64,000 bases of DNA from Escherichia coli (GTDB lineage: Bacteria > Pseudomonadota > Gammaproteobacteria > Enterobacterales > Enterobacteriaceae): NCBI RefSeq assembly GCF_050320075.1, contig NZ_CP190018.1. One strand, written 5' to 3'. The first letter of the stretch is position 1. Each line of letters begins with the position of its first letter. The notes beneath the pieces are model-generated. The model worked only from the letters and a program-made list of their open reading frames with translations, ran no database searches and was not told the DNA's origin. The translations under genes were made by a program, and so were the position numbers. Positions 52,356 to 54,681 of this stretch are shown here, one piece after another.

Positions 52356-53129
<774 letters not shown>

Positions 53130-53157
53130 GTGGCTTTTGAAATGGCGAGACAGAACT

Positions 53158-53331
53158 TTACTGACTCGCCGCAGCCAACTCTTCTTCTGACACCCCGGTA
53201 AAACGCAGGGTGTCTGCAAGATGGACTCCGGATTACAGCATTCTTTTGGCGATATCCAGGGCTTCCAGGCGTCGATCCAATAAATAACCAATCAGGTAAC
53301 TAATAAGATATTCTCTTTCTGCATCTGTCAT
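53158..53331 (-). pseudogene. degenerate, frameshifted copy of an Rpn-family C-terminal tail immediately 3' of yhgA
   Basis: Minus-strand translation gives MTDAEREYLISYLIGYLLDRRLEALDIAKRML* then, in another frame, SGVHLADTLRFTGVSEEELAAASQ*, which parallels the yhgA C-terminus ...[36 protein letters not shown]. Confidence 0.45.
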
Positions 53332-53348
53332 TAAAACCATCCTTTACG

Positions 53349-54242
53349 TTATTGATGATTTATTTCAGCAAGGTCTTCAACCGTCAGGCTGGTAAATCGC
53401 AGAACGTCCTCAAGAGAGACTCCGGCATCCAGCATGGTTTTGGCAATATTTAGGGCGTTGGTACGTATACCTTTCTGAAACCCCTCCTGCCGCAATCTTT
53501 CCGCAATAGTCATTAAACTCTCCTTGTGTTTCGGTGAACGTTCGGCCACACCGTCGATAAAATCGTTAAAACGTACCGCATCGCCAGTTTGCAGTATGTA
53601 ATTAAACAGCCCTTTGATTTGTCTGTCATTAGCGTATCCACTACTTAATAAGCAGGCCATTTGCTCTACCAGCCCCATCAGGTCGCGTTGACGAATATGT
53701 TTTTGAATTAACTCCAGCAGTGCCATACGTCGGTGCTGCATGATTTCATCATCAGGCATGACGGTGACATCAATCAGCGGAAATGCAGAGGCATAAAGCT
53801 GCCTTGCCAGGTTGGGATCGGCGAAACAATCAAGCCAACACAGCGAATAGGGATAGGGGCTTTCAATACCGTGGTAAAACAACAATGGCACCACCATCGG
53901 CAAGGTTTTGTATCCGGCATCCAGGTGATTTTGCATTGCGGCAATGGCGTAGCGCATCATGCGAAATGCGATCAGTTTGTTTGAGGTGCTTTGATGTTCA
54001 ATCAGACAATAGATGTATCCTGGCCCTTGTTCCGTTTTCACCGACCACAGCACGTCGGAATAGCTTTCACGCAGATCGTCATCAATAAAGCTGCTCGACT
54101 CCAGCTTGAGGGTTTTCATATCACAGAGCGCGTGAATGGGTGCCGGTAAATGAAACGCAAGAAAATCGCGTGCCGTCTCCGGTTGGCGTAAAAAGAGTTT
54201 GAACAGCGCATCGTGTGGGGTGGAACTCTGCTTTTTGCTCAT
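53349..54242 (-). CDS. yhgA: Rpn-family recombination-promoting nuclease (PD-(D/E)XK, transposase_31-like)
   Basis: 297 aa; [28 protein letters not shown]...; matches YhgA/RpnA by sequence and position next to bioH. Confidence 0.88.
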
Positions 54243-54444
54243 GGCGTTCCTTCACCTGTTATTTGAATGCCGCGACTCTACGCGCCACTCCACACCTGTG
54301 CATTAGCCAGTTTTCATCCCTGCGAGACGCTTTCAGAGGAACTTACGTCGCGCTGCAAGAATTGCATTTTTATGGAAAGCCGCACGCAAAAAAGCCCGGA
54401 TGCAAACGCATACCGGGCTTTTCAAAACAGGCGATGGAGTATGG

Positions 54445-54681
54445 TTAACGCAGCGCCCACCACTCGCGCAGACAGACTTTGCCTTCCGGGCAGCTTTTAC
54501 AACTGCCAGAGAGGCAGCCGTCAGGTTCTTCCTGAATCCGCACGGCTTTGCCCATGCTTTCCAGCTGTTGCAGCATGGCGTTAATCATTGGCTGCGGCGT
54601 ATTCAATGCCTGGCTTATCTGGGCCGCTTCCATACGGCCCCGTAACGCCAGCAAATCACGTACCTGAATAAGTGAAGCCAT
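54445..54681 (-). CDS. feoC: ferrous iron transport protein FeoC
   Basis: 78 aa from ATG at 54681 ([28 protein letters not shown]...); C-terminal Cys cluster [15 protein letters not shown]. Confidence 0.9.

What the first reader, a model, noticed from the sequence alone, without database searches (positions are those of the whole stretch)
53158..53331. Degenerate second copy of the Rpn C-terminal tail directly downstream of yhgA/rpnA
Eighteen bp after the yhgA stop, the same strand encodes in two frames LEALDIAKRML* and SGVHLADTLRFTGVSEEELAAASQ*, which mirror the last ~35 residues of YhgA ([36 protein letters not shown]). I recall reports that Rpn nucleases encode an inhibitory small protein from their own C-terminal region; if so, a decayed extra copy of exactly that tail may be a relic of a tandem rpn paralog or a former separate antitoxin-like gene.
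Basis: partly seen in the sequence, partly recalled or inferred. Interest (0 to 1): 0.45.

Follow-up and report, generated by a model that had tools for sequence, protein, structure and literature searches.

The report
Truncated spare antitoxin gene after rpnA
Directly after the rpnA toxin-antitoxin nuclease gene lies a second, free-standing copy of its small antitoxin gene, cut short by one stop codon; it is a known kind of element, and it shows that the laboratory strain K-12 built its rpnA tail from this very copy.

Summary
The similarity is real and far above chance. The description needs two corrections. Both peptides lie in one reading frame, separated by an in-frame TAA (53235-53233). 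The copy is also a complete module, with its own Shine-Dalgarno sequence and ATG (53331) matching the internal start of rpnA-S.

It is a nonsense allele of a free-standing 57-codon gene. That gene is intact, at the same rpnA-bioH position, in E. ruysiae and E. whittamii, where the codon is CAA. The intact protein carries Pfam HTH_Rpn_C, and its best solved-structure match is RpnA-S (7TH0).

This is the "rpnSs" arrangement that Zhong et al. 2023 described for rpnC and rpnE. Their main text does not mention it for rpnA.

The stop leaves 32 residues, which is helix 1 only. It falls at the column of E25 in K-12 RpnA-S, where an engineered stop abolished antitoxin activity. The copy is therefore probably dead as an antitoxin.

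853 of 5,426 complete E. coli genomes carry this tandem form, and all 13 distinct alleles I sampled have the TAA. About 4,321 genomes carry the K-12 form. That form equals a tandem allele minus 206 nt, so K-12's rpnA tail is the orthologue of this downstream copy.

It is a new member of a known kind, of modest interest.

The parts
53349..54242 (-). rpnA (yhgA), full-length nuclease toxin RpnA-L, 297 aa, with C-terminal 'tail A' (...[43 protein letters not shown])
   Evidence: ORF list. NCBIfam NF007361 RpnA scores 675 bits, above the 583 cut-off. PGAP annotates it as rpnA in identical genomes.
53349..53525 (-). Internal antitoxin module rpnA-S: Shine-Dalgarno AAGGAG 53525-53520, ATG 53513-53511, then 54 codons plus the stop shared with rpnA
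   Evidence: The sequence is identical to the K-12 internal start that Zhong et al. mutated (K240R, E241D, M244L) to abolish RpnA-S.
53340..53344 (-). Shine-Dalgarno AAGGA of the downstream module, 8 nt before the ATG at 53331. A second ATG at 53340 directly abuts it and is an unlikely start.
   Evidence: Sequence reading. It lies within the 22-nt, 82% repeat of the rpnA-S start region. It is invariant in all alleles aligned.
53233..53331 (-). Truncated downstream ORF (rpnA-Ss-like): 32 codons, MTDAEREYLISYLIGYLLDRRLEALDIAKRML, plus a premature TAA. This corresponds to helix 1 only.
   Evidence: Translation. The exact peptide is on at least 1000 public contigs, named only 'hypothetical protein'. 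The AF2 model of an intact orthologue places helix 1 at residues 3-33.
53275..53310 (-). [quoted passage not shown]
   Evidence: It aligns with the EGRx/KGLx repeat region of other RpnS proteins. The unit number varies: P0040 has an extra YLIS and E. albertii shows expansions. Tandem Repeats Finder does not call it.
53233..53235 (-). Premature stop TAA. The same codon is CAA (Gln) in E. ruysiae, E. whittamii and E. albertii, and GAA (Glu25 of RpnA-S) in K-12.
   Evidence: Nucleotide alignments. Zhong et al. report that a stop engineered at E25 of RpnA-S abolishes its activity.
53158..53232 (-). Untranslated remainder: 24 codons, SGVHLADTLRFTGVSEEELAAASQ, plus the original TAA (53160-53158). 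This is helices 2-3 of the HTH_Rpn_C domain and is orthologous to the end of K-12 rpnA.
   Evidence: Alignment to K-12. PDB 7TH0 match at E = 1e-10, residues 21-57 vs 13-49. NCBIfam RpnA profile positions 257-292.
53144..53170 (-). Hairpin GGCGAG...CTCGCC spanning the original stop codon, followed by AUUUCAAAA. It is probably the shared 3' end or terminator of the rpnA transcript and is also present in K-12.
   Evidence: RNA fold of 53120-53240, z = -2.37. It is conserved in K-12. The simple terminator scan does not call it, so its role is inferred.

Best explanation
The stretch is a nonsense-inactivated, free-standing copy of the Rpn antitoxin module, an 'rpnA-Ss' gene in the nomenclature of Zhong et al.

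What is shown:
- The ancestral locus in Escherichia was rpnA, with its built-in antitoxin rpnA-S ('tail A'), followed 17 nt later by a separate 57-codon gene.
- That gene has its own ribosome-binding site and start codon. It encodes a three-helix HTH_Rpn_C protein whose long first helix carries hydrophobic YL(I/L)x four-residue repeats.
- In the E. coli lineage of this window, codon 33 is TAA. It is CAA in E. ruysiae, E. whittamii and E. albertii. Only the 32 residues of helix 1 can therefore be made.
- The helix-turn-helix part (24 codons) lies untranslated between the stop and bioH.

What is inferred:
- The module is co-transcribed with rpnA/rpnA-S, because nothing terminator-like separates them.
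- The truncated product no longer works as an antitoxin.
- rpnA itself stays a self-contained toxin-antitoxin gene through tail A.
- The two tandem tails recombine. A 206-nt deletion at a GGG microhomology fuses the nuclease domain to the downstream copy and yields the K-12 form of rpnA. An exchange at the LRFT motif yields the O145-type chimera.
For: Intact orthologues at the same locus:
- Intact 57-aa orthologues (89-98% identical) were found in a search of 5.8 billion proteins.
- They sit between a 297-aa rpnA and bioH in E. ruysiae CP057804.1 and on other contigs. They carry Pfam PF27070 HTH_Rpn_C.

The codon at the stop position:
- It is TAA in all 13 distinct tandem E. coli alleles sampled, CAA in E. 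ruysiae, E. whittamii and E. albertii, and GAA in K-12 and L017.
- No complete E. coli genome is closer than 97.0% to the intact E. ruysiae allele.

Homology to the antitoxin:
- PDB 7TH0 (RpnA-S) matches by sequence at E = 1e-10.
- The AF2 model of the intact orthologue has pLDDT 92, with helices at 3-33, 38-45 and 49-56. Its best PDB match is 7TH0, probability 1.00, TM 0.78.
- The ribosome-binding site and ATG are duplicated along with the coding part.

Literature (PMC10400941):
- RpnS is an antitoxin. Downstream rpnSs copies exist for rpnC and rpnE. Such copies can be lost by deletion or by fusion to the N-terminal domain. A stop at E25 of RpnA-S abolishes its activity. E25 aligns with this TAA.

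Recombination between the tails:
- The K-12 tail is orthologous to the copy.
- Removing 206 nt from L017 reproduces the K-12-type junction.
- The O145 chimera has an offset of 194 nt, which keeps the reading frame.

Other support:
- PGAP annotates the fragment in some genomes as a pseudogene with an internal stop.
- The window's lineage has three nonsynonymous and no synonymous changes after the stop.
- Second copies of the tail occur downstream of 12 of about 70 Rpn loci in other genera.
Against: - No expression or activity data exist for this ORF. The loss of function rests on analogy with an engineered stop in a different allele (K-12 RpnA-S).
- The ribosome-binding site, the ATG and the 32-codon frame are intact in every allele sampled. 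No second disabling mutation was seen. That is equally compatible with a young pseudogene and with a maintained 32-aa product.
- Outside the window's lineage, the 24 post-stop codons differ only synonymously (4 sites). This is not what free decay predicts. I attribute it to recombination with functional K-12-type alleles that share those polymorphisms, but did not prove this.
- Only 13 of the alleles in the 853 genomes were read base by base.
- The direction tandem to K-12 rests on parsimony. It also rests on one metagenomic contig (L017) for the exact precursor.
- Whether Zhong et al. list an rpnA-Ss in their supplement could not be checked.
Confidence: 0.85

Rival explanations
1. The 32-residue helix-1 peptide is itself a functional small protein. 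For example, it could be a dimerisation decoy that modulates pairing of RpnA-L with RpnA-S, or it could have a function unrelated to Rpn. In that case the TAA is a selected truncation, not a defect.
For: - The TAA, the Shine-Dalgarno sequence, the ATG and the frame are kept in all 13 distinct alleles sampled across the 853 genomes.
- No further disabling mutation was seen.
- Helix 1 is the dimer interface in the RpnA-S crystal structure.
- The repeat number still varies among truncated alleles: P0040 has an extra YLIS.
Against: - The engineered equivalent, RpnA-S truncated at E25, is inactive.
- Helix 1 of this copy (YLISYLIGYLL) is unlike that of tail A ([14 protein letters not shown]) in the same strain. 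In Zhong et al., pairing required matching repeats.
- Many amino-acid variants of the 32-mer circulate.
- Conservation is also expected for a young pseudogene within one clade.
Confidence: 0.1
2. It is the last remnant of a full-length second rpn gene that once stood in tandem, with its nuclease domain deleted.
For: Tandem duplications of whole rpn genes are reported. Deletions that remove most of rpnA occur at this locus in E. albertii and other strains.
Against: - The homology between the two copies starts at the ribosome-binding site of the internal start, not upstream of it.
- Only 17 nt separate the rpnA stop from the ATG.
- In every species examined the copy is a stand-alone 57-codon gene.
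- No protein with a nuclease domain followed by a YL-type helix was found among 1.84 billion cluster representatives, apart from deletion fusions. The library keeps one representative per 50%-identity cluster, which limits this test.
Confidence: 0.03
3. The resemblance is non-coding or due to chance: a shared terminator, a REP element or low-complexity sequence.
For: A hairpin overlaps the final stop codon, and an AT-rich 21-nt inverted repeat lies nearby.
Against: - The similarity lies 15-16 standard deviations above shuffles.
- It follows the codon frame and extends to intact orthologous genes and to a solved structure.
- There is no Rfam match above threshold and no terminator between the copies.
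- The inverted repeat does not fold better than shuffles, z = +1.1.
Confidence: 0.005

Closest known systems
rpnE-Ss (ypaA) and rpnC-Ss: free-standing second copies of the RpnS antitoxin downstream of rpnE and rpnC in E. coli (Zhong et al. 2023, PNAS, PMC10400941)
   Same: - It is a small gene on the same strand directly after an rpn gene, with its own start.
- It encodes the HTH_Rpn_C three-helix domain.
- Four-residue repeats in helix 1 vary in number between strains.
- It can be lost by deletion or by fusion to the nuclease domain. That is what the K-12 and O145 alleles of rpnA show.
   Different: - It lies behind rpnA, for which the paper's main text mentions no such copy.
- Here it is cut by a nonsense codon after helix 1.
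- Its helix-1 repeats are hydrophobic (YLIS/YLIG/YLLD), not one hydrophobic residue plus charged residues or glycine.
- Its helix 1 does not resemble that of the adjacent rpnA tail, whereas RpnC-Ss and RpnE-Ss cluster with their upstream partners.
RpnA-S of E. coli K-12 (residues 244-292 of RpnA; crystal structure 7TH0)
   Same: From ALxIAK to the C-terminus the copy is its orthologue. It has the same genomic position next to bioH, the same 28-nt spacer and hairpin, and an E = 1e-10 match.
   Different: In K-12 this segment is fused in frame to the nuclease domain and translated twice, as the tail of RpnA-L and as RpnA-S. Here it is a separate ORF with a different N-terminal helix and a stop at the E25 column.
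Orphan or degraded antitoxin genes of type II toxin-antitoxin loci
   Same: It is a small helix-turn-helix antitoxin-type gene next to a toxin gene, inactivated by a point mutation and retained as a short remnant.
   Different: The working antitoxin of this locus is encoded inside the toxin gene. The remnant is a redundant paralogue, so its loss need not unleash the toxin.

Membership tests
RpnS / RpnSs antitoxin (Pfam PF27070 HTH_Rpn_C) | Sequence homology to the C-terminal domain of Rpn nucleases | tested here: met
   PDB 7TH0 RpnA-S at E = 1e-10. NCBIfam RpnA profile positions 257-292 at E = 4e-10. PF27070 is precomputed on the intact orthologues. The Pfam copy available to profile_search lacks this family and gave nothing.
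RpnS / RpnSs antitoxin (Pfam PF27070 HTH_Rpn_C) | Own ribosome-binding site and start codon, directly downstream of an rpn gene on the same strand | tested here: met
   AAGGA lies 8 nt before the ATG at 53331, which is 17 nt after the rpnA stop. This is an 82% repeat of the rpnA-S start region.
RpnS / RpnSs antitoxin (Pfam PF27070 HTH_Rpn_C) | Three-helix bundle with a long first helix carrying four-residue repeats whose number varies between strains | tested here: met
   Tested on the intact orthologue P0008. The AF2 model has pLDDT 92 with helices 3-33, 38-45 and 49-56, and its best PDB match is 7TH0. Repeat number varies in P0040 and in E. albertii. The repeat composition (YLxx) is atypical.
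RpnS / RpnSs antitoxin (Pfam PF27070 HTH_Rpn_C) | Open reading frame that encodes the whole domain | tested here: not met
   An in-frame TAA follows codon 32 in the window and in all 13 tandem E. coli alleles read. The window copy is therefore a truncated allele or pseudogene of the family, not a working member.
RpnS / RpnSs antitoxin (Pfam PF27070 HTH_Rpn_C) | The protein is made and blocks the toxicity or nuclease activity of a cognate RpnL | not testable with these tools
   There is only an analogy: RpnA-S with a stop at E25, the same alignment column, is inactive.
Pseudogene | A disabling mutation relative to intact orthologues at the same locus | tested here: met
   TAA here, against CAA in three other Escherichia species and GAA in K-12. 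PGAP annotates a pseudogene with an internal stop in NZ_CP159170.1.
Pseudogene | Relaxed constraint after the disabling mutation | tested here: inconclusive
   The window's lineage shows 3 nonsynonymous and 0 synonymous changes after the stop. The other TAA alleles show 0 nonsynonymous and 4 synonymous. The numbers are too small, and recombination with functional alleles is likely.
REP element / intrinsic terminator / known RNA family | Palindromic, structured non-coding repeat that explains the similarity | tested here: not met
   No Rfam match above threshold. No terminator between the copies. The spacer region does not fold better than shuffles.
Full-length tandem rpn paralogue (relic) | Remains of a PD-(D/E)XK nuclease domain upstream of the tail copy | tested here: not met
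   Only 17 nt lie between the rpnA stop and the ATG. The homology starts at the ribosome-binding site.

The most novel reading that the evidence does not exclude
The interval between the rpnA 3' end and bioH may be a tail-swapping site, with the downstream copy kept as a recombination cassette even when it is not translated.

The mechanism would run as follows. The toxin tail and the antitoxin are read from the same DNA. Fusing the nuclease domain to the spare module therefore changes toxin and antitoxin specificity in one step.

Under this reading, the reference K-12 RpnA and RpnA-S (7TH0) are products of such a swap. The hydrophobic YL-repeat helix would be a distinct specificity class with no known toxin partner. 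The truncated helix-1 peptide could additionally act on dimerisation.
Probability: 0.15. Interest if true: 0.55.

Novelty: new member of a known kind. Interest (0 to 1): 0.3.

Why it matters
Rpn nucleases are a recently recognised toxin-antitoxin and phage-defence family in which the antitoxin is read from inside the toxin gene. Their C-terminal tails are hypervariable for reasons that are not understood.

This locus gives a concrete, datable series of alleles: tandem intact, tandem with a nonsense codon, two different fusions, and toxin-deleted forms. Together they show how tails are duplicated, exchanged and discarded.

It also shows that the best-studied protein of the family, K-12 RpnA, carries the tail of the former stand-alone gene. 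That matters when K-12 results are applied to the roughly 16% of complete E. coli genomes in this collection (853 of 5,426) whose rpnA has a different tail; they include UTI89, E2348/69 and ST1193 isolates.

In practical terms, the 32-codon ORF is widely annotated as a hypothetical protein or left unannotated, and it could be labelled correctly.

Tried and rejected
- **Pfam scan of the repaired 57-aa sequence:** only a chance MOZART1 hit. The local library lacks PF27070, so I relied on precomputed Pfam hits, PDB and NCBIfam instead.
- **Tandem Repeats Finder on the YL repeats:** nothing. Three diverged 12-nt units fall below its threshold.
- **Promoter and terminator scan of 53000-54500:** no promoter-like site, and no terminator between the copies.
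- **Rfam at E <= 1:** only sub-threshold eukaryotic families.
- **The 21-nt inverted repeat around the downstream start:** rejected as a regulatory hairpin because the region folds no better than shuffles.
- **Search of the plasmid collection for the 57-aa protein:** only chromosomes mislabelled as plasmids.
- **Literature search for the peptide, 'rpnASs' or 'HTH_Rpn_C':** nothing relevant.
- **Supplement of Zhong et al.:** not held.
- **dN/dS before and after the stop:** counts too small to decide.
- **Other frames and the reverse complement of the YL-repeat DNA:** read by eye, they show no sign of a frame-shifted ordinary charged repeat.
- **Absence of full-length Rpn proteins among the hits:** not treated as evidence, because K-12 RpnA itself was missing from that list. 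The representative-library search is limited by clustering at 50% identity.

Full report
**Setting.** The window carries gntX (minus strand), bioH (52359-53129, plus strand), rpnA/yhgA (53349-54242, minus strand, 297 aa), feoC and feoB. The finding lies in the 219 nt between the convergent ends of rpnA and bioH.

**Check of the observation.**
- Translating the minus strand shows a single frame that reads MVLMTDAEREYLISYLIGYLLDRRLEALDIAKRML*SGVHLADTLRFTGVSEEELAAASQ*.
They are not in two frames.
- The similarity to the rpnA 3' end is formal:
  - a 91-nt direct repeat at 71% identity, and a separate 22-nt repeat at 82% that covers the ribosome-binding site, the ATG and the first codons;
  - a nucleotide local score of 52, against 16.2 +/- 2.2 in shuffles;
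  - a protein score of 88, against 21.6 +/- 4.3, reached by none of 5000 shuffles.
- The two repeats have spacings of 194 and 182 nt. The 12-nt difference means the downstream copy has one more four-codon unit between its start and its helix-turn-helix part.
- The copy starts at the ATG at 53331, with AAGGA 8 nt upstream. This mirrors the AAGGAG-ATG of the internal start of rpnA at 53525-53511.
- No terminator-like site lies between the copies, no Rfam family reaches threshold, and the spacer does not fold better than shuffles.

**What the literature says.** Zhong et al. 2023 (PMC10400941) report the following.
- Each E. coli rpn gene has an internal start that produces a small protein, RpnS. 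[quoted passage not shown]
- RpnA-S (49 aa, PDB 7TH0) is a dimeric three-helix bundle. Its long first helix carries four-residue repeats that vary in number between strains and set the pairing specificity.
- RpnS can also be encoded as a separate gene downstream ('rpnSs'). This is shown for rpnE (ypaA) and rpnC.
- A stop codon introduced at E25 of RpnA-S abolishes its ability to block RpnA-dependent SOS induction.
- The main text does not mention a downstream copy for rpnA. The supplement is not held. A search for the peptide or for 'rpnASs' found nothing.

**Comparison with K-12.**
- The 461-nt region matches 5,424 of 5,426 complete E. coli genomes, but only 853 over its full length.
- In MG1655, rpnA is 292 aa and the region is 206 nt shorter.
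- The alignment shows that the K-12 tail (...RQEGEQSKALHIAKIMLESGVPLADIMRFTGLSEEELAAASQ*) is the orthologue of the downstream copy of the window, not of the window's own rpnA tail.
- The supporting details are the same 28-nt spacer to bioH, the same hairpin over the stop codon, and near-identity from ALxIAK onward.
- The window's TAA aligns with GAA, which is E25 of K-12 RpnA-S. That is exactly the codon Zhong et al. converted to a stop.

**Intact versions exist.**
- The intact gene lies between a 297-aa rpnA and bioH in E. ruysiae (CP057804.1) and on several other contigs. Its product carries Pfam PF27070 HTH_Rpn_C.
- E. whittamii has it too. There an IS200/IS605-type element has destroyed the nuclease part of rpnA while both small ORFs remain.
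- E. albertii keeps the YL-repeat tail fused to a fragment of RpnA.
- The codon at the stop position is CAA in all three species and GAA in K-12-type tails and in contig L017.
- It is TAA in all 13 distinct tandem alleles read from complete E. coli genomes.
- No complete E. coli genome is closer than 97.0% to the intact E. ruysiae allele, or closer than 93.1% to the L017 allele.
- One metagenomic contig has TAT in an otherwise identical background, which may be a revertant.
- The exact 32-aa peptide of the window is on at least 1000 public contigs, named only 'hypothetical protein'.
- PGAP annotates the fragment in some genomes as a pseudogene, 'transposase; internal stop; missing N-terminus'. 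In most genomes it leaves the fragment unannotated.

**Structure.**
- An AlphaFold model of the intact E. ruysiae protein has pLDDT 92, with helices at 3-33, 38-45 and 49-56. Its best PDB match is 7TH0.
- The natural stop therefore removes helices 2 and 3 and leaves helix 1.
- Helix 1 is unusual. Other RpnS proteins have EGRx, KGIE or QGIE units, whereas this one has YLIS-YLIG-YLLD.
- The unit number varies: P0040 has four units, and E. albertii has expansions of YLISYLLDR.
- No full-length Rpn protein with such a helix appeared among 1.84 billion cluster representatives. Clustering at 50% identity could hide one.

**Recombination between the two tails.**
- Contig L017 has a tandem allele whose downstream copy reads ...YLLGEQSKALHIAKIMLESGV.
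- Removing 206 nt between GAAGGG|TTTC in rpnA and TTGGGG|GAAC in the copy gives exactly the K-12-type junction CAGGAAGGGGAACAATCC, as seen in L012.
- Since 206 is 2 mod 3, the deletion converts between the frames of the two copies.
- The O145-type allele (L009) joins tail A to tail B at CTGCG(A/T)TTTACC. The offset is 194 nt, again 2 mod 3.
- Contig L102 shows yet another pair of modules.
- Census of complete genomes: the K-12-type junction is in 4,321, the tandem form in 853, and the O145 chimera in 45.
- The YL module occurs in three other Escherichia species, and the K-12 form follows from a one-step microhomology deletion. I therefore infer that the tandem state is older and the K-12 form derived. 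This is parsimony, not proof.

**Is the remnant decaying?**
- The window's lineage has three changes after the stop, all nonsynonymous (P to H, I to T, M to L).
- The other TAA alleles differ there at four sites, all synonymous. All four are shared with functional K-12-type or E. whittamii alleles.
- The likeliest reading is recombination with functional alleles across this core-genome interval, plus neutral change in the window's lineage. The numbers are small and this remains open.
- Before the stop there are two nonsynonymous and two synonymous differences, plus many singleton amino-acid variants in public data.

**Breadth.** Among 78 Rpn loci from other species, 12 of about 70 that could be analysed have a second copy of their own tail within 700 nt downstream. 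These are mainly in Photorhabdus, with one in Rouxiella. The arrangement is common in the family.

**Conclusion.**
- The finding is real. It is a truncated allele of a stand-alone RpnS-type gene behind rpnA.
- Shown: homology, the gene's own start signals, intact orthologues at the same locus, the single nonsense codon, and the orthology to the K-12 tail.
- Inferred: co-transcription with rpnA, loss of antitoxin function, and the direction of the tandem-to-fusion change.
- It belongs to a kind of element already described for two paralogues, so its novelty is limited. The points of interest are the origin of the K-12 tail, the coincidence of the natural stop with the engineered E25 stop, and the hydrophobic repeat helix with no known partner.

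Noticed in passing
L009 (NZ_CP027362.1, E. coli 95-3192) locus 159-790; the equivalent position in the window is 53130-53157: In O145-type strains a PemK/MazF toxin and an AbrB/MazE antitoxin pair is inserted between rpnA and bioH. In the same strains rpnA has a chimeric A/B tail. About 45 complete genomes carry this form.
   Followed up: partly
L018 (E. albertii CP034212.1) 2501-2737: A 78-aa ORF (87 and 96 aa in other strains) fuses RpnA residues 42-69 directly to the YL-repeat tail. The strains differ by expansions of a 9-residue unit, YLISYLLDR. Most of rpnA is deleted.
   Followed up: partly
L104/L105 (E. whittamii), L019, L102 1-480: An IS200/IS605 TnpB-type element interrupts or replaces the nuclease part of rpnA, while the small tail ORF and the stand-alone 57- or 53-aa ORF stay intact. 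The toxin is lost and the antitoxin-type genes are kept.
   Followed up: partly
L102 228-657 (metagenome contig ERZ928014): A different pair of tandem modules sits at the same locus. The tail reads ...RQEGHRQGVQQGVQQGRRLEALDIAQTML..., and the stand-alone gene begins [32 protein letters not shown]. The segments are shuffled between modules.
   Followed up: no
L106 2001-2174 (metagenome contig ERZ28626391): The allele is identical to the common truncated one except for TAT (Tyr) in place of TAA. That restores a 57-aa ORF. It may be a revertant or an assembly error, and it was seen on one contig only.
   Followed up: no
window 53161-53232 and the same stretch in L003-L010, L097-L100: After the premature stop, alleles outside the window's lineage differ only at synonymous positions of the old frame (4 sites). 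The window's lineage has 3 nonsynonymous changes. This is odd for a pseudogene unless recombination with functional K-12-type alleles supplies the variants.
   Followed up: partly
L004 (NZ_CP032515.1, strain 118UI) 825-1621: An IS5 insertion disrupts rpnA in this strain. PGAP then labels the remaining 3' part 'ISNCY family transposase', incomplete.
   Followed up: no
L011, L012 (NZ_CP148363.1, NZ_CP015138.1): K-12-type alleles in which the 5' part of rpnA is deleted. This leaves a pseudogene that still contains the internal antitoxin module next to feoC.
   Followed up: no
P0070 (198 aa, from the representative library): A protein made of three consecutive HTH_Rpn_C-like modules, each about 60 residues long, from an unidentified organism. 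It looks like a tandem array of antitoxin-type domains fused into one chain.
   Followed up: no
L028, L040, L042, L047, L049, L050, L057, L061, L070, L080 (Rouxiella, Photorhabdus): These Rpn genes are followed within 700 nt by a second copy of their own tail, 81-96% identical at protein level. The copies often have a different number of four-residue repeats.
   Followed up: partly
window 53279-53299 and 53344-53364: A 21-nt AT-rich inverted repeat (81% complementary) brackets the start region of the downstream ORF. The RNA does not fold better than shuffled sequence, so it is probably chance.
   Followed up: yes
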